From assembly GCA_000997475.1 (NCBI GenBank), contig LCEC01000001.1, forward strand, positions 375 through 64,374: DNA of 64,000 nucleotides, in the 5' to 3' direction. Below the pieces are notes generated by a model, which was given only the letters and a program-made list of their open reading frames with translations, ran no database searches and was not told the origin of the DNA. This document shows positions 33,850-51,537 of the stretch, piece after piece. This DNA comes from Parcubacteria group bacterium GW2011_GWB1_42_6. Its GTDB lineage: Bacteria > Patescibacteriota > Minisyncoccia > Portnoybacterales > GWB1-42-6. The position numbers and the translations under genes are program-made. The first letter of the stretch is position 1; every line of letters starts with the position of its first letter.

Positions 33850-34435
33850 CCAGATAAACCACCAGCGTAAGCTGGTGAGTGCGTTTAAAAGCGTAGCTAT
33901 TGTACAATAAAATCACCTCGGGAAAGGAGGTGATTTTAAACATGAGCAGAAGCTATCTGCTGTATCAACTCGACCACTGCACTTACCATTGCAGTTATCA
34001 TATCGTGTGGACACCACGATTCCGCGGTAAGGTTTTGGCCGACAACTATATTAAAGCAGAATTAAAAAGAATGTTCAAACAGATTGCCAACTGGAAAGGA
34101 CTAAGGATTTATGCTTGGCACATCGGAGATGAGCACATCCATCTGCACATCTGCATTCCTCCCAAATATTCTATTGCCTACATCATTCAAATTCTCAAGG
34201 GAAAAACTTCTGGCTGGATCAAAAAGAAAACCAAGAAGTTTCCCAAAGGAGTCCTCTGGGCCAGGGGATACTTTGTTTCGACCGTTGGCATCACGGAAAT
34301 CGCCGTGAAAAAATATATTGAAAACCAGCAACACCATCAAATTGAACTTTCTCAATTAAAACTTTGTTAGCCGGCTGGCGTCAGCCAGCAAAAAGATACC
34401 CCCAGCGTTTAAGCTGGGGGTAGTTCATTTTGGCC
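33850..34435 (+). mobile_element. IS200/IS605-family insertion sequence (tnpA only) with left-end and right-end hairpins
   Basis: Y1 HUH transposase ORF flanked by similar hairpins: accagc-gtaa-gctggt at 33861 and cccccagc-gtttaa-gctggggg at 34401. Confidence 0.55.
33942..34370 (+). CDS. tnpA: IS200/IS605 family Y1 (HUH) transposase TnpA
   Basis: YHCSYHIVWTPRFR and HIHLHICIPP (HuH) motifs. Confidence 0.8.
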   Translation: MSRSYLLYQLDHCTYHCSYHIVWTPRFRGKVLADNYIKAELKRMFKQIANWKGLRIYAWHIGDEHIHLHICIPPKYSIAYIIQILKGKTSGWIKKKTKKFPKGVLWARGYFVSTVGITEIAVKKYIENQQHHQIELSQLKLC

Positions 34436-34439
34436 TCTA

Positions 34440-34751
34440 TTATATGAGGCCGAGGATTTCCAACAGCCTCACGACTAACCATTCCCGCAGGAGGAACCGC
34501 CAGCGCGCGCGGGTCCACCATTGGTCCCCATCATGGTCGTAAGGAATTTCTTTCATCGTCGGCATCGGTTTGGCGTTGATGCCGAGCTTTTTGAGCGTCC
34601 GCAGAACCCGTGGCATATGGTCCTGGTGGGCCGCGGCATAAACTTGCGTGTCGGCGCCAAACATTTTTTTCGTTTTTGCGAAAAGATGCATTTGGGCCGT
34701 AACCTCTCTCGTGTCAAGATATTTTTTCGCGACACGATGAAAACGGACCAC
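34440..34751 (-). CDS. Hypothetical GC-rich orphan ORF adjacent to the IS right end (possibly a gene fragment)
   Basis: About 55% GC over 300 bp, in contrast to the ~40% genomic background. Confidence 0.25.
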   Translation of the reverse strand: MVRFHRVAKKYLDTREVTAQMHLFAKTKKMFGADTQVYAAAHQDHMPRVLRTLKKLGINAKPMPTMKEIPYDHDGDQWWTRARWRFLLREWLVVRLLEILGLI

Positions 34752-35085
34752 GAAAGCTGATCCAACTCCAATTCTTTCCAGCGCTTTATTTACTTCCCAC
34801 TGGGAGAGAATGCGAATCGGCTCAGAATAATCAGACCAAAAATCTTAGCTTATAAATCTTTTTGTTTCCCGGGCGATCGCTTCATTGCTTAGCCCGGGTT
34901 CCTCACCCCGCAGATTAAATGAAAATGCCAAAATGATTATCATTGGCAACCTCCAATATTAAGTGTGAAAAGGACTATTCGTATTCGTGATTTTTAATTA
35001 TACTATGCTTTTTCTCATTGTGTCAATAGTTGAGTTTCGCATGTTGAGTTTCGCAATTCAATTATTCAAAAAATCACTGATGAGT

Positions 35086-43652: not shown

Positions 43653-43728
43653 GAGTTTGCGCTCCCCCTCTTCCTTGCGCGCTTCATATTTATAGCATAG
43701 AATGAGGTAAATTACAAACCCCCGCACC

Positions 43729-43868
43729 TAATCGGCATAATTGAATTCTCTTTCTTCTCTGTCATCCCCGCGCAGGCGGGGATCCAGATTAATTCAGAAC
43801 CTGGATTCCCCCCGTAGCTGCGGGGCGGGAATGACAAATATAAAGCCAATGCCGATTAGGTGCGGGGG
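43729..43868. mobile_element. MITE-like element A with 19-bp perfect terminal inverted repeats
   Basis: TIR CCCCCGCACCTAATCGGCA / TGCCGATTAGGTGCGGGGG; internal multi-hairpin core. Confidence 0.6.
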
Positions 43869-43876
43869 CAAATCTC

Positions 43877-44959
43877 ATGAATAAGCCCGTCAAAAAAGTC
43901 ATTATCGCGATGTCGGGAGGAGTGGATTCCTCCGTTTCGGCCGCCTTGCTCAAAAAGCAAGGTTTTGAGGTTGAAGGGGTTTTTATGAAATTTTGGTCGG
44001 AACCGGAATCGAAAGACCCCGAATCGGTTTGCCGGCAAAATTTATGCTGTTCCAAAGAGGCTGAAGAAGCGGCGCGGCAAGTGGCCGAGAAACTGGGCAT
44101 CCCGTTTAAGGTTTTGGATTTCAGCCGCGAATTCAAAAAAGAAGTGGTTGATTATTTTTTGGCCGAACAGAAAAAAGGCCGCACGCCCAATCCTTGCGTC
44201 GTTTGCAATAAGAAAATAAAGTTCGGCCTGCTCTTTGATTACGCGCAAAAAATGAAAGCCGACTTTTTGGCTTCGGGCCATTATGTGGATAAGATTAAAT
44301 CAAAAGGCGTTTTTAAAATTAAAAAAGCCAAAGACCAATCCAAAGATCAGACCTATTTCCTTTACCGCTTGAATCAAAAACAATTAAGCAAATTGATTTT
44401 TCCGGCCGGAGATATCTTGAAAGAAGATATTTATAAAATTGCCAAGAAACTAAAACTGCCTTATTGGCGCGCCGAAAGCTTTGATTTGTGTTTTGCCCGC
44501 TCCGGCGCCGAAAGCTTCGTCAAAAAATATTTAAAGCTGGTTCCGGGAGAAATCAGGAATCTTGATGGCGAAATTTTGGGCCGCCACGAAGGTTTGGCGA
44601 TTTATACGATCGGCCAGCGCAAAAGAATTCCCGTTGCCCAAGGGCCTTGGCGGGTGGTTAAAAAAGATGAGAGAAAAAATATTCTTTTTGTGAGCAACGA
44701 TGAAAAAGATTTGTATTCAAGCGAGCTTAAAATGGCGCGGGTGAATTGGACAAGCGGCCAAGCTCCGGAATTTCCTTTGCGGGCGGACGTAAAGATTCGT
44801 TATAAAAGCAAGCCGGCGCGGGCAATGATTGAACCGATTGATAAATCGGCCAAAAAATTAAAGGTAAAATTTTCAAAACCGCAGTTTGCCGCGACTCCCG
44901 GGCAATCGGCAGTTTTTTATAAAGGCAAGGAATTGTTGGGCGGGGGAGTCATCGAATAG
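43877..44959 (+). CDS. mnmA: tRNA-specific 2-thiouridylase MnmA
   Basis: PP-loop IIAMSGGVDSSVSA and conserved catalytic Cys regions. Confidence 0.85.
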   Translation: MNKPVKKVIIAMSGGVDSSVSAALLKKQGFEVEGVFMKFWSEPESKDPESVCRQNLCCSKEAEEAARQVAEKLGIPFKVLDFSREFKKEVVDYFLAEQKKGRTPNPCVVCNKKIKFGLLFDYAQKMKADFLASGHYVDKIKSKGVFKIKKAKDQSKDQTYFLYRLNQKQLSKLIFPAGDILKEDIYKIAKKLKLPYWRAESFDLCFARSGAESFVKKYLKLVPGEIRNLDGEILGRHEGLAIYTIGQRKRIPVAQGPWRVVKKDERKNILFVSNDEKDLYSSELKMARVNWTSGQAPEFPLRADVKIRYKSKPARAMIEPIDKSAKKLKVKFSKPQFAATPGQSAVFYKGKELLGGGVIE

Positions 44960-45032
44960 CGAATCGCTAATAGCTGATCGCGAATCGGAAAGAAAAAATC
45001 AAAATCGCGAATTTAAAATAATCCAGGCAAAG

Positions 45033-45066
45033 AAAAAAGCCTCCAAATTTTTGGGGCTTTTTAAAA
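45033..45066 (+). terminator. Putative terminator after mnmA
   Basis: Imperfect hairpin aagcc(t)cc/ggggctt followed by a T-run. Confidence 0.4.
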
Positions 45067-45653
45067 TAATCGCGGGAAGGCCGGGGCCCAAAGCGTAATT
45101 TCGGAAATACCCGATTTTGACAGCTAAGCCGCTGTCTTGTCAGCCAATCCGTAACGGAAAGGCAAGCTTTGGGGATTGGGTTTGTGCCGTCCACGGTTTA
45201 TGTTTTTACTCGCTCTATTTTTGGATAGAGTCTCCGGTTGCTTCCCGCGACAGGAAGAACTTTCTTGCATCATGCCTCTGGCAAGGAATGATTTTTTGAT
45301 ATTAGCAAAATAATTTTTATTTGTCAATAAAAAAAACAAGGCTCTCGTTTTGTGAGAGCCTTGGTGCAGAAAGAAGTTTGTCTGGAAAAATTGCTTGCTC
45401 TGACGCATATAATGGGAGGGATAAGGAAAAAGAGAAATAATGAAGATAAGCGCTGATGAATCAGACAAACTCCTTTTTATAAAGAACTGATTGAAAGGGA
45501 AATCGGTATGGAACCGGGAAATTAAGGCTGCGCTCTTTCCCTTTCAATTATATTTTATGCTTTTTTAAAATTTTGTAAATAGAATTATCCACAGGCAATA
45601 TTCTTTTGCGAATTTTTTTTAAAATATAATTATTATAAATATTTTGCCATCTC

Positions 45654-45682
45654 TTGACAAGGTGATCAATAGGGAGTATACT
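45654..45682 (+). promoter_or_regulatory. Near-consensus sigma70 promoter
   Basis: TTGACA, 17-nt spacer, TATACT. Confidence 0.55.
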
Positions 45683-45688
45683 GGAACC

Positions 45689-46270
45689 ATAGGCTAAGGA
45701 TGGAGTCTGAATTTAACCGAAAAGGGCTTGTTTGAGCCAACGGCAGACCCCCTAGCTCGCACATTTATATAAAAATATCAATTAGATCTTCGCCCCGCCT
45801 GCCGGCCGAACCCATCAATTTTATTTAGATGGCTGCGCGACCAGGCATGTGTGGCGAATTCGGGTTTCTTTTTTCGGACAGGTTGCGGGACAGGCATCCC
45901 TTTTAATGACAGCATTGCGATCGTCATTATTACTGACCGAAAATGAACCCGGAAAAATTGGAAGAGGAGAGGAATCCCGCCCGCAGACCTCGCCCCGATG
46001 AAAATATCATCGACGATCCGTCATTGGACGCCCCTCTCCCTTCCGCCTAAAAAGTCCCCGTCATTTTCGTAAGTAAGGGTTGCCGTACCCGATAAGAGTT
46101 TTATTGAAAGAAGCAAAAACCCTCTTATCGGTAAAATAGCAACACCGTTTCAAAATCAGCGACGACGGGGCAAAAAAGAGGAGCCAGTGGATTAAATACC
46201 CATTGGCTCCTCGGAATTATTGTTTCTTAAGACACCGAAGCCCCCCAAAAACACGAGGGGCTTCTTTTTT
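45689..46270 (+). ncRNA. Candidate structured non-coding RNA (~580 nt, class unknown)
   Basis: Bounded by a consensus promoter and a strong terminator (gaagcccc/ggggcttc plus T6 at 46237-46270). Multiple stable hairpins, including a 10-bp stem at ccgataagag..ctcttatcgg. No ORF of 60 aa or more on either strand. Confidence 0.35.
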
Positions 46271-46767
46271 ATCTTTTATGATTTTAAAAACGACGCAATC
46301 CATCACACTCAAGAGTAAAACAGGTTGTGCTCTGATTATTTATTATTGCGGAACAAAATAAAAAGAGCGCTTCGTTTGAAAGCGCCCTCATTTTGATGCA
46401 GGCGAGAAAAAATTTTATCTAAGAATTCTCGAGTTCTCTCAGATATTTTTTCCTCGTCGGGAATTATCGTGTTAGACGACCGCCTTGTTTTCGCATTAGC
46501 GAATGTTTCGAGTTCTTAAGCTCGATCTTTTTAGGCGTTGATAACACTAACTCCCTTTATAACTTTTGGAAAATTTGGATTACCCGTCCTTCCCTTTTGG
46601 ACTTGGGAAGAGTTGGGGTGATGCTCGACTCATACTGCCTCCGTGGAATGGAGTTTTCTTGAGTGAGCGGAAGGTACTGACCGATCGAAAGCCGATAAAA
46701 ACAGCCTTCGATCATATATAGAGATTATAAAATAACGATGAGCTTGTCAAGTCTTTTCAATTTTACA

Positions 46768-46883
46768 CACACCTAGTCAGGATATTTGAATTTAATTTGG
46801 ATAATAAACAAGTTTACTCCCAATGGCTTGTTTGTCTTCGAAGGATTCTTTGAATAAAAAACAATCCTGATTAGGCGCGGGGG
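46768..46883. mobile_element. MITE-like element B, copy 1
   Basis: (c)cacctagtcagga ... tcctgattaggcgcggggg imperfect TIRs; interior is the reverse complement of copy 2. Confidence 0.55.
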
Positions 46884-46937
46884 CAAGGGAAAAGAAATCC
46901 GATTGAACTTTTGAATTTGCCGTGCTAAGATTTTTAT

Positions 46938-48809
46938 ATGACGGCCAAGGAATTACGCGGTAAATATCTTGAATTTTTCAAAGCTCGGGGGCACGCGGTT
47001 ATCCCTTCGGCTTCTTTGGTTCCGCAAAACGATCCCACAGTGCTTTTTACCACCGCCGGAATGCAACCTTTAGTGCCGTATCTTTTGGGCGAAAAGCATC
47101 CCCAAGGAAAGCGGCTTGTCAATGTTCAAAAATGCCTCCGCACCAACGATATTGATGAAGTGGGTGATGCCACTCACGGAACTTTTTTTGAAATGCTTGG
47201 CAATTGGTCTTTGGGCGATTATTTTAAAAAAGAATCGTTGAGTTGGAGCTATGAATTTTTAACTTCGCCTGAATGGTTGGGATTGGATAAAAACCGTTTG
47301 GCTGTTTCGGTTTTTGCAGGGGATGACGACGCGCCATTTGATGAAGAAGCTTTTGAAATTTGGAGATCTTTGGGTATTTCTGAAAAAAGAATCACCCGGC
47401 TTCCCAAAGAAAACAATTGGTGGGGGCCGGCCGGAGAAACCGGGCCATGCGGACCGGATTCGGAAATATTTTATTGGACCGGCGCTCCGGATCAGGTTCC
47501 GGAAAGTTTCAACGATGATAACGATCTTTGGGTGGAAATCTGGAATAACGTTTTTATGCAATATAATAAAAACATAAAAGGCTCCTTTGAACCGCTTGCG
47601 CAAAAAAATGTTGACACGGGTTTGGGGCTGGAAAGGGCGCTGGTTACTCTCAATGGCTACGACGAGATTTATAAGATTGACGTTATCCGGCCGATTATTG
47701 AAAAGATAGAAGAAATTTCAGGGAAGAAATACGATGAAACTATCTCTGAAATCCCCCTTAATCCCCCTTTTACAAAGGGGGGAAATCAGAAGGCTATGAG
47801 AATCGTGGCGGATCATTTGAAAGCGAGCGCTTTTTTAATCGCCGATGGAGTTGAGCCTTCCAATACGGAGCGAGGCTATGTTTTGCGCCGGCTGATTCGG
47901 CGCGCGGTGAGATATGGCCGGCAATTGGGAATTGAAGGAATTTTTTGTTTTAAAATCGCGCGGGTCGCGATTGAAATATACAAAGATATTTATCCGGAAC
48001 TTTCGCGGGAAGAAAATTCAATCGAAGAGCAATTAACGAAAGAAGAAGAAAAATTTGCCAAGACTCTTGAATCCGGATTGAAACAATTTGAAAATGTAAA
48101 AATCAAAATTAAAAATGACAGCGCAAAATCTGGAATTATTTCCGGGGAGATCGCTTTTAATTTGTATCAGACTTACGGTTTTCCCGTCGAGCTGACAAAA
48201 GAATTGGCCAAAGAAGCCGGATTGGAAGTTGACGAGGAAAAATTTAAGGATGAAATGAAGCGCCATCAAGAACTTTCCCGCGCCGGAGCCGAACAAAAAT
48301 TCAAAGGCGGTTTAGCCGATCATTCGGAACAAACCGTCAAATACCACACGGCGGCGCATTTGCTTTTGGCGGCTTTGCGTCAAACTTTGGGCGGAGACGT
48401 AAATCAGCGTGGCGCCAATATAACAAGCGAACGATTGAGATTTGATTTTTCGCATCCGCAAAAAATGACTCCGGAACAAATTAAAGAAGTTGAGGATTTG
48501 GTGAATGAAAAAATCAAAGAAGACTTGCCGGTTGCTTGCGAAGAGATGGCCTTGGATGAAGCGAAAGCAAAGGGAGCGACTGGAATTTTCGATTCAAAAT
48601 ACGGGGAGAGGGTGAAAGTTTATACAATTGGAAGCCCTTCGACAGGTCCTTCGACAGGCTCAGGGCAATGCTCGGGGTCCGCGGCTTTCAGCCGCGAGAT
48701 TTGCGGCGGGCCGCATGTTGAAAGAACGGGAGTTTTGGGAAATTTTAAGATCGTTAAAGAAGAATCGTGTTCGGCCGGAGTGAGAAGAATCAAAGCGGTG
48801 CTGAAATAA
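46938..48809 (+). CDS. alaS: Alanine--tRNA ligase, short form (catalytic, tRNA-recognition and editing domains; no C-Ala domain)
   Basis: N-terminal class II core, editing-domain HTAAHLL motif; 623 aa; contains two in-frame insertions. Confidence 0.85.
   Translation: MTAKELRGKYLEFFKARGHAVIPSASLVPQNDPTVLFTTAGMQPLVPYLLGEKHPQGKRLVNVQKCLRTNDIDEVGDATHGTFFEMLGNWSLGDYFKKESLSWSYEFLTSPEWLGLDKNRLAVSVFAGDDDAPFDEEAFEIWRSLGISEKRITRLPKENNWWGPAGETGPCGPDSEIFYWTGAPDQVPESFNDDNDLWVEIWNNVFMQYNKNIKGSFEPLAQKNVDTGLGLERALVTLNGYDEIYKIDVIRPIIEKIEEISGKKYDETISEIPLNPPFTKGGNQKAMRIVADHLKASAFLIADGVEPSNTERGYVLRRLIRRAVRYGRQLGIEGIFCFKIARVAIEIYKDIYPELSREENSIEEQLTKEEEKFAKTLESGLKQFENVKIKIKNDSAKSGIISGEIAFNLYQTYGFPVELTKELAKEAGLEVDEEKFKDEMKRHQELSRAGAEQKFKGGLADHSEQTVKYHTAAHLLLAALRQTLGGDVNQRGANITSERLRFDFSHPQKMTPEQIKEVEDLVNEKIKEDLPVACEEMALDEAKAKGATGIFDSKYGERVKVYTIGSPSTGPSTGSGQCSGSAAFSREICGGPHVERTGVLGNFKIVKEESCSAGVRRIKAVLK
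47752..47786. repeat. In-frame GC-rich palindromic insertion within alaS
   Basis: tccccctta atccccctttt acaaa ggggggaaat encodes PLNPPFTKGGN. Confidence 0.6.
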
Positions 48810-48856
48810 CAGTTAATGCAAAATGCAAATTTCAAAACGCAGATTACTCTCTTTTT

Positions 48857-48935
48857 GTCATTCCCGCGCAGGCGGGAATCTAGATTAATTCAGAATTAGA
48901 CTTGGGTCTGGATCCCCGTTTTCACGGGGATGACA
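48857..48935. repeat. TIR-less copy of the MITE-A core (GTCAT..ATGAC multi-hairpin unit)
   Basis: gtcattcccgcgcaggcgggaatctagattaattcagaa.. is about 80% identical to 43761-43837. Confidence 0.55.
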
Positions 48936-48973
48936 TCTATGGTTGGGTTTATTTTAATTTTAAAATTTATTTT

Positions 48974-49417
48974 ATGTCTGACATCAAAAAACCCGGCGTG
49001 GGCTTTGGGGTGATGATTGAAAAGAAAGGTAAAATCCTTTTGGGCCGGCGCCATAGCGATCCCAAGAAAGCTTCCAGCGAACTTCACGGCGAAGGCGCTT
49101 GGACGATGCCCGGAGGCAAATTGCATTTTGGCGAAACTCCCGAGGAAGGGGCTTGCCGGGAAGTTTTGGAAGAAATCGGCGTGAAAATAAATTCAAGAAG
49201 GCTCAAGCTCATAAGCGTTTCCAATGATATGGTGAGCGACGCGCATTTTATCACTTTGGGATTCAGATATCCGAGTTTTAAGGGCAGTCCCAAAGTGATG
49301 GAGCCGGATGAAATCGTTGAATGGCGCTGGTTTAATCCCAAGGCATTGCCCAGCCCTATGTATTTTCCCAGCGAACGGGTGTTCAAGCATTTTAAGAGAG
49401 GCAAAATATACGGATAG
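48974..49417 (+). CDS. NUDIX hydrolase
   Basis: Nudix box GGKLHFGETPEEGACREVLEEIGV. Confidence 0.75.
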   Translation: MSDIKKPGVGFGVMIEKKGKILLGRRHSDPKKASSELHGEGAWTMPGGKLHFGETPEEGACREVLEEIGVKINSRRLKLISVSNDMVSDAHFITLGFRYPSFKGSPKVMEPDEIVEWRWFNPKALPSPMYFPSERVFKHFKRGKIYG

Positions 49418-49530
49418 GTGGATATCTTTATTGCGGAGAAGCGTTTTTTTGGATATAATTATTTAAGAAAATATCGGGCGCGAAAGAATCCTTCGTTTTG
49501 CCGCGCGCGCTTTTGAGTTGTAAATAAACT

Positions 49531-49647
49531 CCCGCACCTAGTCAGGATTGTTTTTTATTCAAAGAATCCTTCAAAGACAAACAAGCCATTGGGAGTAAAC
49601 TTGTTTATTATCCAAATTAAATTCAAATATCCTGACTAGGCGCGGGG
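49531..49647. mobile_element. MITE-like element B, copy 2 (inverted relative to copy 1)
   Basis: cccgcacctagtcagga ... tcctgactaggcgcgggg. Confidence 0.55.
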
Positions 49648-49659
49648 ATAAAATAAACT

Positions 49660-51537
49660 ATGGCGAAATTGATTTATTTAAAACCGAATCAAGACATAAC
49701 TTCGATAATCGGCTATCTTTGGCAAACCAAAGAACCTGAAATCGCGCTCGTTGCTCCAAAAAATTCGGTTTTATTGGAGAATCGCATTGCGCTTAAAATT
49801 CTCAAAAGAGAAGCGGACAACTGCGAAAAAGAGATAATTTTTGTCATCAAGGATTCGGAAAGCCGCGAAGCGGTGGAAGATCTGGGCTTTAAAACCAAAG
49901 TTTCCTGGCCGAAAAGCGAAATAAGCGAAGAAGAATCCGAAGAGGAAGAAAAAGTTATCAAAGAAATGCCGGCTGAAGATTACCAATTGATGATTGGCAA
50001 TCAGCTGAAGATAAAGCACGGAGCGGCTTCCAAGATCCGCTTTAGCGACATCAAAAAACCCGGGAATAAGAAAAAAGATTCGGATGAAAAAATTAAGAAA
50101 ATAAAATCAGCCGAAGAAAGCGAAGATGATTTTATTTTGGGACATTTGGCGGAACCGGAAAAAGAATTTTCTTTGCCCATTCCCCAAGAAACCGATGATT
50201 TTAAGGAGAAAGCGGAGACTTTCCTTAAAATAAAAAATTTCGCTCCGCGCGAAGAAATTAAAGAAGAAACGGTTCAAGAAGAATCTGTTCCTTTTGAAAA
50301 AATATTTGGCCGGGAAGAAAAGGAGATATTCATTAAGCCGCAAATTCATAACTTTTCCAAGAAGAAATTTTCCGGTTTCAAATTTCCTGATTTTTCTTCA
50401 AAGATCGTCATGCTTTTTGTCGGTTCGGCCGTGATTGTGGCGGGATTGGTTTTTTATTTTGTTTTGCCCAAAGCCGAAATCGAGGTTGTTCCAAAGGTGG
50501 AGGCGACCGAACAAGATTTAAACGTTGTGGCCGACAAGGGATCGGCGTTTATTGATTTGGGGAAAGGCGTAATTCCGGCGCAAGTGATTCGTTTTGATAA
50601 AAAATCATCTCGGGAATTCAACACTACGGGTGAAAGCCAAGCCAACGAGAAAGCTCGAGGCGTTATGACGGTTTATAATGAATACAGCTCTTCGCCGCAG
50701 GGCTTGGTTGAAAAAACGCGTTTTGTTTCGGCGGATGGAAAAGTTTTTCGGACCGTCAAATCCATCACTGTTCCGGGAGCTAAAATCAGCGAAGGGAAAG
50801 TGATCGCGAGTTCAATAGATGTTGAGGTGGCGGCCGACGAAGCGGGCGAATCGTATAATATTTCTCCGGGAAAATTTTTAATCCCCGGTTTTCAGGGATC
50901 GCCAAAATACGAAGGTTTCTACGGCATAACCAAAGACGCCATGTACGGCGGCACGACGGGAATTTCTAAAATTGTTTCGGCGGATGATGTCGAAATGGCC
51001 AAAAATGAAATCTGGGCGGATCTTCAAAAAGATTTGGAGAGCGACATAAAAACGCAAACGCCCGAAGGGTTGAAACTTTTGCCGGAAGCCAAAAAATTGG
51101 AAATCAGCTCATTCGATCCATCCGTTAAGGCGGGCGGCCGGGCTGATAAATTCACGATGACGGTCAAAGGAACCGGAATTCTCATTTTTTTTGACGAGCG
51201 CGACATTATTGAATTAGCCAGAGAAAATTCGGAAATTGAATCTTTGGAAAGCAAAGATTATTCCGATAAATTGTCGGAAGTTGTTTATTCCGAAGTTAGC
51301 GCTGATTTTGAAAAAAGCAAAATAAGTTTTAAAGCAAAGGTGGGGGAAAAATTGGTTTGGAAAATCAATGATTCCATTCTTAAGAGATTGATCGCCGGCC
51401 GGAATGAAACTGAAATCAGAACGATTTTGAATGACCGCGAAGAAGTGTTGAGCGCCAGGATTCTTTTCTGGCCTTTCTGGGTGGATGCCGTGCCTGATAA
51501 CCCGGACAGAGTGAATGTGAGCGTTAAAACGGATTGA
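49660..51537 (+). CDS. Hypothetical single-pass membrane protein with acidic linker
   Basis: 625 aa; central TM IVMLFVGSAVIVAGLVFYFVL; no recognisable motifs. Confidence 0.4.
   Translation: MAKLIYLKPNQDITSIIGYLWQTKEPEIALVAPKNSVLLENRIALKILKREADNCEKEIIFVIKDSESREAVEDLGFKTKVSWPKSEISEEESEEEEKVIKEMPAEDYQLMIGNQLKIKHGAASKIRFSDIKKPGNKKKDSDEKIKKIKSAEESEDDFILGHLAEPEKEFSLPIPQETDDFKEKAETFLKIKNFAPREEIKEETVQEESVPFEKIFGREEKEIFIKPQIHNFSKKKFSGFKFPDFSSKIVMLFVGSAVIVAGLVFYFVLPKAEIEVVPKVEATEQDLNVVADKGSAFIDLGKGVIPAQVIRFDKKSSREFNTTGESQANEKARGVMTVYNEYSSSPQGLVEKTRFVSADGKVFRTVKSITVPGAKISEGKVIASSIDVEVAADEAGESYNISPGKFLIPGFQGSPKYEGFYGITKDAMYGGTTGISKIVSADDVEMAKNEIWADLQKDLESDIKTQTPEGLKLLPEAKKLEISSFDPSVKAGGRADKFTMTVKGTGILIFFDERDIIELARENSEIESLESKDYSDKLSEVVYSEVSADFEKSKISFKAKVGEKLVWKINDSILKRLIAGRNETEIRTILNDREEVLSARILFWPFWVDAVPDNPDRVNVSVKTD

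What the first reader, a model, noticed from the sequence alone, without database searches (positions are those of the whole stretch)
45654..46270. Candidate ~580-nt structured non-coding RNA driven by a consensus promoter in a 1.8-kb ORF-free region
TTGACA-17-TATACT (45654-45682) is the best sigma70-like promoter I saw in the window. About 580 nt downstream lies a strong intrinsic terminator (gaagcccc-N12-ggggcttc-TTTTTT, 46237-46270). The interval contains several stable hairpins, for example ccgataagag..ctcttatcgg, ggagccagtgg..cattggctcc and tgacagc..gtca. It has no ORF of 60 aa or more on either strand, in a genome that is otherwise coding almost everywhere. I found no RNase P, tmRNA, SRP or T-box consensus strings. 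It may therefore be a large ncRNA of unknown class (compare OLE, GOLLD, ROOL and raiA-type RNAs) or an unusual small-protein locus.
Basis: seen in the sequence. Interest (0 to 1): 0.7.

Follow-up and report, generated by a model that had tools for sequence, protein, structure and literature searches.

The report
Orphan structured RNA gene in Parcubacteria
A stretch of about 580 bases with its own promoter and terminator, in a tiny groundwater bacterium, most likely makes a highly folded RNA that codes for no protein, matches no known RNA family and is seen only in this one species, so it is a real but narrow and functionally unexplained candidate.

Summary
TTGACA-17-TATACT (45654-45682), the terminator (46237-46270), the named hairpins and the lack of any ORF of 60 aa or more are all present. 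The interval folds far better than shuffles (z -5.7 to -6.7), while 14 coding controls give +0.04 to -2.8. Rfam 15, ARAGORN, Pfam, and phage and plasmid BLAST find nothing.

One contig of the same population (L009) carries a second copy of the 3' domain, 67% identical. Across 24 consensus pairs, 7 changed on both sides, 1 on one side and none broke.

This is not a widespread class. The organism (Parcubacteria GW2011_GWA1_42_7) has no sequenced relative with MnmA between 94% and 65% identity. The nearest syntenic relatives (L126, L168) have a promoter-to-terminator unit of 700-800 nt at the same place. That unit is conserved between those two but cannot be aligned to the window.

The unit also sits in a 1,978-nt non-coding island that is structured throughout, with further promoter/terminator pairs on the minus strand and a perfect DnaA box between divergent promoters.

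Best reading: a lineage-restricted, fast-evolving structured ncRNA gene of unknown function. A small-peptide mRNA or hairpin-rich non-functional DNA is not excluded.

The parts
45654..45682 (+). Sigma-70-type promoter TTGACA-17-TATACT (11 of 12). The predicted start is near A45689.
   Evidence: The start site is inferred from the spacing, not measured.
45697..45753 (+). Domain 1: 5' stem-loop. Helices are GUCUG/CAGAC, CCG/CGG and GGCUU/GAGCC.
   Evidence: MFE and pair probabilities of 0.83-1.0. Single sequence only.
45789..45858 (+). Domain 2: long interrupted hairpin. Helices are UUCGCC/GGCGAA, UGCC/GGCA and CCAUC/GAUGG.
   Evidence: pair probabilities 0.94-1.0. Single sequence only.
45859..45953 (+). 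Domain 3: multi-helix junction. It is closed by UUCGGGUUU/GAACCCGGA and UUUUCGG/CCGAAAA, and holds hairpins GGGA/UCCC and UAAUGAC/GUCAUUA.
   Evidence: pair probabilities 0.89-0.97. It contains the motif AUCCCUUUUAAU, which resembles a motif in L126 and L168. Single sequence only.
45960..46044 (+). Domain 4: long purine/pyrimidine hairpin, GGAAG-GGAGAGG / CCUCUCC-CUUCC, with an inner hairpin CGAUGA/UCAUCG.
   Evidence: pair probabilities about 1.0. Strain contig L006 lacks 46024-46040, which removes most of the 3' arm. This domain is therefore dispensable, or that allele is defective.
46054..46171 (+). Domain 5: 3' domain. An outer helix (G46054-C46171, bulged U46055, CCCCGUC/GACGGGG) encloses GUUGC/GCAAC and the 10-bp hairpin CCGAUAAGAG/CUCUUAUCGG.
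   Evidence: This is the only part with comparative support. Against the second copy in L009 (67% identity), 7 of 24 consensus pairs changed on both sides, 1 on one side and 0 broke. Alifold z is -6.7 on the plus strand and -4.8 on the minus strand. A simulation gives P about 2.5e-6.
46178..46212 (+). Domain 6: perfect 13-bp hairpin GAGGAGCCAGUGG/CCAUUGGCUCCUC. Read on the minus strand it is followed by TTTTTT, so it also looks like a minus-strand terminator.
   Evidence: I13; pair probability 1.0.
46237..46270 (+). Intrinsic terminator GAAGCCCC-N12-GGGGCUUC-UUUUUU.
   Evidence: It is the best nhmmer hit in the window for the L126/L168 unit profile, though only at E = 0.54.
45585..45593 (+). 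Perfect DnaA-box 9-mer TTATCCACA. It lies 6 nt upstream of the -35 of the minus-strand promoter at 45579 and 61 nt upstream of that of the plus-strand promoter.
   Evidence: only 2 perfect boxes in 64 kb. L126 has the same 9-mer at about 4479, at the equivalent place.
45337..45660 (-). Context: divergent minus-strand promoter-like sites TTGTCA-17-TATAAT (45660..45632) and TTTACA-16-TAAAAT (45579..45552). Also a minus-strand terminator (45363..45337) and hairpins 45490-45548 and 45370-45476.
   Evidence: The terminator, spacer and promoter layout match L126 4130-4590 (z = 6.9). The transcribed part is only 48% identical.

Best explanation
This is a stand-alone gene for a structured non-coding RNA of about 580 nt, restricted to one Parcubacteria lineage.

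Proposed mechanism:
1. RNA polymerase with the housekeeping sigma factor starts at the near-consensus promoter (45654-45682), close to A45689.
2. The transcript folds into six successive, mostly locally nested domains.
3. It ends at the GC-rich hairpin and U-run at 46237-46270, with the 46178-46212 hairpin just upstream.
4. The RNA itself is the product. Selection acts on the base-pairing of at least the 3' domain (46054-46171), while the primary sequence drifts quickly.

The unit is one of several promoter/terminator-bounded structured units packed into the 1,978-nt mnmA-alaS gap. It shares a divergent promoter region carrying a DnaA box with a minus-strand unit.

Shown: the promoter and terminator sequences, the absence of ORFs, the exceptional folding energy, the compensatory changes in two helices, and the absence from known families.

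Inferred: that it is transcribed, the start site, plus-strand identity, and that it acts in trans as a regulatory or scaffold RNA. What it binds or regulates is unknown.
For: - The promoter is 11 of 12 with a 17-nt spacer. Other sites in this window scoring 11 or 12 of 12 mostly lie just upstream of genes, so the motif is probably used by this organism.
- A canonical terminator lies in the same orientation.
- No ORF exceeds 52 aa, none on the plus strand has a strong Shine-Dalgarno sequence, and the ten longest stop-to-stop frames have no Pfam match.
- Fold z is -5.7 or -6.7, against +0.04 to -2.8 for 14 coding controls. Helix pair probabilities are mostly 0.9 or higher.
- Comparison with the second copy in L009 gives 16 unchanged pairs, 1 one-sided change, 7 two-sided changes and 0 broken pairs at 67% identity. 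Alifold z is -6.7 on the plus strand. Random substitution keeps all 18 pairs of the two main helices with P about 2.5e-6.
- The G-U pairs in the L009 copy are only possible on the plus strand.
- L126 and L168 carry, at the same syntenic place and in the same orientation, a promoter-to-terminator unit of 700-800 nt without a long conserved ORF. Their pairwise alignment has a consensus fold z of -5.2.
Against: - There is no expression data.
- No homolog exists beyond this population, and the comparative support rests on one contig (L009). That contig could be a structural variant, a paralog or a mis-join, and it covers only about 130 nt of the 580.
- I anchored the structural alignment by hand on conserved flanks.
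- Strain contig L006 deletes 17 nt of the domain 4 stem, and L003 has a SNP that breaks a minor 2-bp helix.
- The minus strand folds at least as well (z = -7.3).
- The positional counterparts in L126 and L168 do not align to the window. They contain an AAGGAGG-ATG small ORF with a conserved FPNPFN stretch whose four nucleotide differences are all synonymous. This hints that the unit type may be, at least partly, an mRNA.
Confidence: 0.55

Rival explanations
1. The transcript is an mRNA, or a dual-function RNA, for one or more very small fast-evolving peptides, and the structure belongs to long untranslated regions. Candidates in the window are 45847-45906 (MCGEFGFLFSDRLRDRHPF, 19 aa), 45851-45946 (31 aa) and 45943-46050 (35 aa).
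For: - L126 and L168 have AAGGAGG 6-8 nt before an ATG, about 150-180 nt into their units. This follows a terminator-like leader hairpin.
- Their ORFs (61 and 40 aa) share FPNPFN, and all four nucleotide differences there fall at third codon positions.
- The window has ATGTGT (as in L126), and CAT-CCC-TTT sits in the same codon phase as AAT-CCC-TTT in L126.
- Genes here need not have a Shine-Dalgarno sequence: alaS looks leaderless.
Against: - The window's ORFs have no good Shine-Dalgarno sequence.
- The 19-aa frame stops right after HPF, and the peptides are otherwise unalignable.
- The synonymous-site signal rests on 6 codons noticed after the fact (about 1% by chance).
- The 17-nt deletion in L006 frameshifts the 35-aa ORF.
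- Most of the 580 nt, including the covarying 3' domain, lies downstream of any such ORF.
- No gene caller called an ORF here in 18 assemblies.
- No protein in 5.8 billion matches any frame.
Confidence: 0.15
2. The region is non-functional or selfish hairpin-rich DNA in a variable genomic slot. It could be remnants of lost genes or mobile elements. The promoter-like and terminator-like sequences would then be fortuitous or left over, and the palindromes would be maintained at the DNA level.
For: - The mnmA-alaS slot varies across the clade: a cupin-like 125-aa gene in L174, a 70-aa ORF plus SLT_2 in L176, an 85-aa ORF in L177, an unrelated 556 nt in L178.
- Contigs often break here (L009, L010, L168, L169).
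- The population holds a 17-nt deletion, a TA-repeat indel, SNPs and a structural variant.
- Dispersed palindromic repeats occur nearby.
- The sequence is not conserved between relatives.
Against: - Neutral decay does not yield z about -6 folding or seven two-sided compensatory changes with none disruptive.
- The promoter, DnaA box, divergent promoter and terminator layout is kept between the window and L126, although the transcribed sequence is not.
- No pseudogene trace was found by Pfam or tblastn.
- No copy of the unit exists elsewhere in the window.
- CPR genomes are otherwise compact.
Confidence: 0.17
3. It is a highly divergent copy of a housekeeping or otherwise known RNA (RNase P RNA, 6S, SRP, tmRNA, OLE, GOLLD, ROOL, raiA, a T-box or other leader for alaS) that the Rfam models fail to recognise in CPR.
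For: - The conserved AAAAGU-CCC...GGG-CAAAA helix with a bulged U (46049-46062 / 46164-46175) looks superficially like the P4 helix of RNase P RNA. This is from my own knowledge of the E. coli M1 RNA sequence.
- The unit is always upstream of alaS in the three genomes.
- The 64-kb window holds none of these RNAs.
Against: - No Rfam model reaches even E<=10 with a relevant family on the plus strand of the unit, and none does in L126 or L168.
- The P4-like helix encloses about 100 nt rather than about 280 nt, and its 3' strand is followed by A's where RNase P has UU. The other conserved RNase P blocks are absent.
- A housekeeping RNA would be alignable between the window and L126 or L168, and it is not.
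- A strong terminator and about 670 nt separate the unit from alaS, which has its own promoter.
Confidence: 0.04
4. It is part of a type I toxin-antitoxin-like or antisense-regulated module. A structured toxin mRNA (plus strand) and a divergently transcribed small RNA (minus strand, about 45545-45337) would share a regulated promoter region.
For: - The two units are divergent and have near-consensus promoters 60-100 nt apart.
- A regulator-type site (DnaA box) lies between them.
- A 15-nt motif is shared: AUCGUCAUUAUUACU in the plus-strand unit, and its near-copy in the minus-strand unit (I6).
- Such loci are typically orphan and fast-evolving.
Against: - No small hydrophobic peptide ORF is present.
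- The shared motif is similar in the two RNAs rather than complementary.
- At 580 nt the unit is long for a type I toxin mRNA.
- No PADLOC or Pfam-type evidence was sought, or is possible, for such short frames.
Confidence: 0.05

Closest known systems
Large structured bacterial ncRNAs of unknown or recently emerging function (OLE, GOLLD, ROOL; Rfam families)
   Same: It is about 600 nt long with multi-domain nested structure. It has its own promoter and terminator, no ORF, and GC content above the surrounding spacer.
   Different: None of their covariance models match. Those classes are conserved across many genera, and are often prophage-linked or membrane-protein-linked. This RNA is seen in one species population only and has no such neighbours.
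Orphan or species-specific trans-acting sRNAs with paralogous tandem copies (for example PrrF1/PrrF2, OmrA/OmrB, Qrr1-5; from general knowledge)
   Same: It is lineage-restricted, fast-evolving and bounded by a promoter and terminator. A diverged second copy lies next to the first in one strain contig (L009).
   Different: It is four to five times longer than typical sRNAs. No target, seed region or chaperone is known, and the second copy seems to lack its own promoter.
P4 helix of bacterial RNase P RNA
   Same: It has the conserved A-rich strand AAAGU-CC with a bulged U, pairing with a distal GG..C strand. The conserved flanks are kept while the inner pairs covary.
   Different: The enclosed distance, the 3' flank and all other conserved regions differ. 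The Rfam RNase P models are silent. I regard it as a resemblance only.
The 700-800 nt units of L126 (4538-5262) and L168 (7915-8757) between mnmA and alaS
   Same: They share the genomic slot, the orientation, a near-consensus TTGACA promoter preceded by a DnaA-box-like 9-mer, and a strong AGCCCC...GGGGCUUUUUUU terminator. Neither has a long ORF, and both are strongly structured.
   Different: They cannot be aligned to the window unit (z = 1-2; CM E = 0.43). They contain an AAGGAGG-ATG small ORF that the window lacks in intact form.

Membership tests
OLE / GOLLD / ROOL / raiA / HEARO and all other Rfam 15 families | A match to the family covariance model at or near its gathering score. | tested here: not met
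   There are 0 hits at gathering thresholds in the whole window. At E<=10 over 44900-47000 only unrelated sub-threshold noise appears, with the best score 26 bits against a 49-bit cut-off.
RNase P RNA (bacterial type A/B) | A long-range P4 helix enclosing the specificity domain, conserved regions CR-I to CR-V, and a length of about 330-400 nt. | tested here: not met
   Only a local P4-like helix (46054-46062 / 46164-46171) enclosing about 100 nt is present. There is no Rfam RNase P hit at E<=10.
tmRNA / tRNA-like | A tRNA-like domain plus a tag reading frame. | tested here: not met
   ARAGORN finds no gene in the window.
T-box or other cis-leader of alaS | Continuity with the regulated gene, a specifier or antiterminator, and a model match. 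| tested here: not met
   There is no T-box hit. A strong terminator and about 670 nt separate it from alaS, which has its own TTGAAC-17-TAAGAT promoter ending 6 nt before the ATG.
Conserved structured ncRNA family (generic criterion: covariation across independent lineages) | Statistically supported covariation in many diverged homologs. | tested here: inconclusive
   Only one diverged copy exists (L009), covering the 3' domain. It shows 7 two-sided compensatory pairs and 0 broken. No further homologs were found.
Protein-coding gene or pseudogene | An open frame with homologs, or a frame-preserving substitution pattern. | tested here: not met
   No ORF exceeds 52 aa. Pfam is negative on the ten longest frames. 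No hit for any frame among 5.8 billion proteins. tblastn and tblastx against neighbours' ORFs are negative. Very small peptides cannot be excluded.
Type I toxin-antitoxin locus | A small hydrophobic toxin ORF plus an antisense or divergent sRNA complementary to the toxin mRNA. | tested here: not met
   A divergent minus-strand unit exists. However, there is no hydrophobic small ORF, and the shared 15-nt motif is the same sense in both RNAs rather than complementary.
Repeat-array RNA loci (CRISPR, TIGR arrays, ToxI-like) | Tandem repeats with spacers. | tested here: not met
   No tandem or interspaced repeat array occurs in 44000-50000. TIGR arrays were considered because PMC12045711 reports them in parasitic bacteria.
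Chromosomal replication origin (oriC) | A cluster of DnaA boxes, an AT-rich unwinding element and a switch in GC skew. | tested here: not met
   The gap holds one perfect box (45585) and an AT-rich stretch of 20% GC at 45560-45659. However, cumulative GC skew rises monotonically across the whole window, and genes stay on the plus strand on both sides.

The most novel reading that the evidence does not exclude
The mnmA-alaS gap of a Parcubacteria subclade (the window, L126, L168) is a conserved 'RNA island'. It would hold several independently transcribed, highly structured RNAs, including a new class of 580-800 nt ncRNA. Their architecture is maintained (a divergent promoter pair bearing a DnaA box, multi-domain folds, strong terminators) while the sequence turns over quickly. 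In an organism with a genome under 1 Mb, such an investment would imply an important RNA-based function. That function might be coupled to replication status through DnaA, or to the episymbiotic lifestyle.
Probability: 0.25. Interest if true: 0.75.

Novelty: new member of a known kind. Interest (0 to 1): 0.5.

Why it matters
CPR/Patescibacteria have tiny, densely coding genomes, and almost nothing is known about their non-coding RNAs. Two kilobases without a gene, packed with near-consensus promoters, terminators and exceptionally stable folds, is expensive real estate there.

If the 580-nt transcript is real, it adds an experimentally testable large ncRNA from a lineage with no cultured model. 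The conserved layout with non-conserved sequence would also be a useful case of structure or architecture evolving faster than alignment methods can follow.

If it turns out to be a small-peptide mRNA or hairpin-rich debris, the finding is ordinary.

Tried and rejected
Homolog searches that found nothing:
1. Genome scan with MnmA. The nearest GTDB species has 61% identity, and nhmmer of the gap against all 80 loci found nothing.
2. Two pattern scans of viral contigs. All 27 loci were chance matches.
3. The single metagenome scan, with TTGCCGNAC...AAAAACC...TAAAATAG. It gave 39 loci with no homolog among them, and not even the window's own sequence.
4. Protein-anchored synteny walking with MnmA and AlaS relatives. 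Only L126 and L168 share the long non-coding gap.
5. A chimeric query of all stop-free frames of the unit and of the L009 copy against 5.8 billion proteins, to catch spurious ORF calls over homologs. It gave no hit.
6. blastn against phage and plasmid records gave no match.

Tests of remote homology to the L126/L168 units:
7. Global and local alignment z-scores, a profile HMM of L126+L168 and a covariance model of their 3' part. None place the window unit significantly.

Ideas rejected:
8. Pseudogene: Pfam on the longest frames, and tblastn with neighbours' ORFs.
9. oriC: rejected on GC skew.
10. DGR template/variable pair for the two copies: the mismatches are not adenine-specific and no reverse transcriptase is nearby.

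Technical failures:
11. MAFFT could not align the 3' strand of the outer helix. The structural alignment was therefore built by hand, so the count of structure pairs and a CM of the window domain were not used.
13. The apparent homology of the minus-strand unit to L126 turned out to rest mainly on the terminator and promoter motifs. The transcribed part is only 48% identical.
Full report
**Where the window comes from.** The flanking proteins are found, residue for residue, on contigs of Rifle aquifer groundwater assemblies (PRJNA268031; GCA_000998935.1 contig LCFJ01000004.1, GCA_000996265.1, and several JGI and ENA assemblies). One source names the AlaS protein 'Parcubacteria group bacterium GW2011_GWA1_42_7'. 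The finding lies in the 1,978-nt gap between mnmA (43877-44959, +) and alaS (46938-48809, +). This is the largest gene-free stretch in the window.

**Checking the observation.**
- The promoter scan scores TTGACA-17-TATACT at 11 of 12.
- My census of the window finds thirty sites scoring 10 of 12 or better, nine at 11 of 12 and one at 12 of 12 (35026..34997, minus strand). This is a very good promoter but not uniquely the best.
- Several of the other high-scoring sites sit just upstream of genes, which suggests the consensus is used in this organism. Four of the thirty lie inside the 1,978-nt gap.
- The terminator (8-bp GC-rich stem, 12-nt loop, U6) is canonical.
- No start-to-stop ORF overlapping the interval exceeds 52 aa, and no plus-strand ORF has a good Shine-Dalgarno sequence.
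- Rfam 15 gives nothing at gathering thresholds in the entire 64 kb and only noise at E<=10 in the gap. ARAGORN finds no tRNA or tmRNA.

**Is the structure more than chance?**
- The 582-nt plus-strand sequence folds at -200.3 kcal/mol, with z = -5.67 against dinucleotide shuffles. The minus strand gives z = -7.27.
- With a uniform procedure, the candidate scores z = -6.7. Fourteen coding segments of equal length from the same window score between +0.04 and -2.77.
- The two flanks of the gap are also unusual, at -5.4 and -4.5. The whole gap is structured, not just this interval.
- The MFE resolves into six mostly locally nested domains plus the terminator, most helices having pair probabilities of 0.9 or higher.

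**Comparative evidence inside the population.**
- Sixteen strain-level contigs are 99.1-100% identical over the part of the gap they cover.
- The few differences are informative. There is a TA-repeat indel at 45778 (L004, L010) and a T46086C SNP (L003). A 17-nt deletion at 46024-46040 in L006 removes most of the 3' arm of the domain 4 hairpin.
- Contig L009 is identical to the window up to 46346. It then continues into a sequence that is a diverged copy (67% identity) of window 46009-46183.
- I anchored the alignment on the conserved flanks AAAAGU-CCC and GGG-CAAAA. The outer helix is CCCCGUC/GACGGGG in the window and CCCGCCG/CGGCGGG in the copy, so four consecutive pairs are changed on both sides.
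- The 10-bp hairpin CCGAUAAGAG/CUCUUAUCGG becomes UCCGCAAGAG/CUCUUGUGGA. That is three two-sided changes and one A-U to G-U change.
- Over the 24 consensus pairs, 16 are unchanged, 1 changed on one side, 7 on both sides and none is broken. The consensus fold is z = -6.7 on the plus strand and -4.8 on the minus strand, against column shuffles.
- Fifteen random substitutions in the 36 paired bases of the two main helices leave all pairs intact with probability about 2.5e-6.
- The G-U pairs of the copy would be A-C mismatches on the minus strand. This, together with the promoter and terminator orientation, points to the plus strand.
- Caveats: the alignment was made by hand because MAFFT mis-registers the 3' strand. 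The evidence is a single contig and covers only the 3' domain.

**Search for relatives.** The organism is isolated in the databases.
- In 5.8 billion proteins, MnmA relatives jump from 99% and 94% identity (the same population) to 65% and below.
- A GTDB-wide scan gives 61% at best, with no nucleotide similarity in the downstream region.
- Viral contigs, phage and plasmid records and a six-frame chimeric protein query gave no homolog.

**Synteny walking.**
- Among the contigs examined, the context efp(-)-mnmA-gap-alaS-GlxA-like gene is kept in L126 and L174. L176 has the same order with one extra gene before the GlxA-like gene. L168 has efp(-)-mnmA but its contig ends inside the gap.
- The content of the mnmA-alaS gap varies: a cupin-like 125-aa gene (L174), a 70-aa ORF plus a lytic transglycosylase (L176), an 85-aa ORF (L177) or an unrelated 556 nt (L178).
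- Only L126 (MnmA 65% identical, gap 2.5 kb) and L168 (59% identical, at least 1.6 kb before the contig ends) share a long gene-poor gap.
- Both contain, in the same orientation as the window, a TTGACA promoter, 700-800 nt without a long conserved ORF, and an AGCCC...GGGGCUUUUUUU terminator.
- These two units are clearly homologous to each other (alignment z = 9-10). Their consensus fold is z = -5.2.
- The window unit cannot be aligned to either of them. Evidence: z = 1-2; the profile HMM's best hit is only the terminator, at E = 0.54; the covariance model of their 3' part gives E = 0.43 and ranks sixth.
- What is shared between the window and L126 is the layout upstream of the unit. This comprises a minus-strand terminator hairpin with compensatory changes, an AT-rich spacer, a minus-strand promoter, a perfect TTATCCACA 9-mer, and then the plus-strand promoter (z = 6.9).
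- That similarity rests on those motifs. The transcribed part of the minus-strand unit is only 48% identical.

**The small-ORF question.**
- In L126 and L168 a terminator-like leader hairpin is followed by AAGGAGG, 6-8 nt of spacer and an ATG. The ORFs (61 and 40 aa) share only FPNPFN(x)S.
- The four nucleotide differences in those six codons are all synonymous. This is suggestive of translation, but it rests on six codons noticed after the fact.
- The window has ATGTGT..CAT-CCC-TTT-TAA (45847-45906) in the same phase, which gives a 19-aa frame with a poor Shine-Dalgarno sequence.
- None of the window's small frames is supported by population variation. The L006 deletion frameshifts the 35-aa frame.
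- I therefore keep a peptide-coding or dual-function reading as a rival at about 15%.

**What it most likely is.** It is an independently transcribed, lineage-restricted, fast-evolving structured ncRNA, and one of several such units in a non-coding island.
- The minus strand of the gap carries its own promoter/terminator pairs: promoter-like sites at 45660..45632, 45579..45552 and 45327..45299, and terminators at 45363..45337, 46389..46363 and the bidirectional mnmA terminator at 45034-45062.
- The perfect DnaA box at 45585-45593 lies between the divergent promoters, here and in L126. L168 has an 8-of-9 version.
- This suggests, by inference only, that DnaA or another factor recognising this site co-regulates the divergent units.
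- It is not the replication origin: GC skew and gene orientation do not switch.

**What it is not.** It is not a member of any Rfam family, and not a tRNA, tmRNA, T-box, CRISPR-type or TIGR-type array. It is not a recognisable pseudogene. The 3' domain's AAAGU-CC helix with a bulged U recalls P4 of RNase P RNA, but no other RNase P feature is present.

**Verdict.** The 'large ncRNA of unknown class' reading is the best available explanation (confidence about 0.55). It should be framed as an orphan, species-level candidate inside a structured non-coding island, not as a counterpart of the widely conserved OLE, GOLLD or ROOL classes. Function is unknown. Transcript mapping and more homologs are the decisive missing data.

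Noticed in passing
window 46772-46881 (+) and 49531-49640 (-): A 110-nt inverted repeat pair, 97% identical, brackets alaS and the NUDIX gene. Each copy lies just upstream of a gene start (alaS at 46938, the GlxA-like gene at 49660). Each contains a one-mismatch DnaA-box-like TTATCCAAA and the motif AATGGCTTGTTTG, which recurs near the 5' end of the candidate RNA (45722-45734).
   Followed up: partly
window 43653-43688: The window has a 36-nt GC-rich segment immediately upstream of the efp start codon. All public assemblies that cover it carry a different 100-nt segment rich in GTGAAC/TTTAC repeats. This is either a strain polymorphism in the efp promoter region or an assembly difference.
   Followed up: partly
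window 43719-43868; also L168 7283-7340 and 8776-8847: A perfect 20-nt inverted repeat (CCCCCGCACCTAATCGGCAT / ATGCCGATTAGGTGCGGGGG) encloses a 110-nt nested palindrome of the form GTCATCCC...GGGATCCAG...CTGGATTCC...GGAATGAC, between efp and mnmA. Similar GTCATCCC/GGAATGAC palindromes occur twice in L168, once at a contig end. This suggests a dispersed REP- or MITE-like element family in this clade.
   Followed up: partly
window 45034-45630, minus strand: Two further candidate minus-strand units lie here. One runs from promoter TTTACA-16-TAAAAT (45579..45552) or TTGTCA-17-TATAAT (45660..45632) to terminator 45363..45337, with 13-bp and 15-bp hairpins. The other runs from promoter TTGACA-17-TAATAT (45327..45299) to the bidirectional terminator at 45034-45062. 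The region folds at z = -5.4.
   Followed up: partly
window 46290-46760: This part of the gap is weakly similar (local alignment z = 5.8) to a separate unit of about 400 nt. That unit is 65% conserved between L126 (3760-4160) and L168 (7372-7785) and has a long-range helix GAGAGGGGGGCUCC/GGAGCCGCCCUCUC with a compensatory change. In the window it lies after the candidate RNA, whereas in L126 and L168 it lies before it.
   Followed up: partly
window 46903-46940: alaS appears to be leaderless. TTGAAC-17-TAAGAT ends 6 nt before the ATG, and there is no Shine-Dalgarno sequence.
   Followed up: no
window 34397-35026, minus strand: This is the only 12/12 consensus promoter in the window (TTGACA-18-TATAAT, 35026..34997). 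It points into another gene-poor, hairpin-rich stretch that ends at a strong bidirectional terminator (34397-34422). The stretch contains only a 103-aa GTG-start ORF.
   Followed up: no
whole window: There is no tRNA gene and no Rfam family at gathering threshold in 64 kb, although several ribosomal-protein operons are present.
   Followed up: no
L126 5612-5620 and L178 about 1150: More DnaA-box-like 9-mers occur in the mnmA-alaS gaps of relatives. L126 has a second perfect TTATCCACA next to a terminator, and L178 has TTATTCACA.
   Followed up: no
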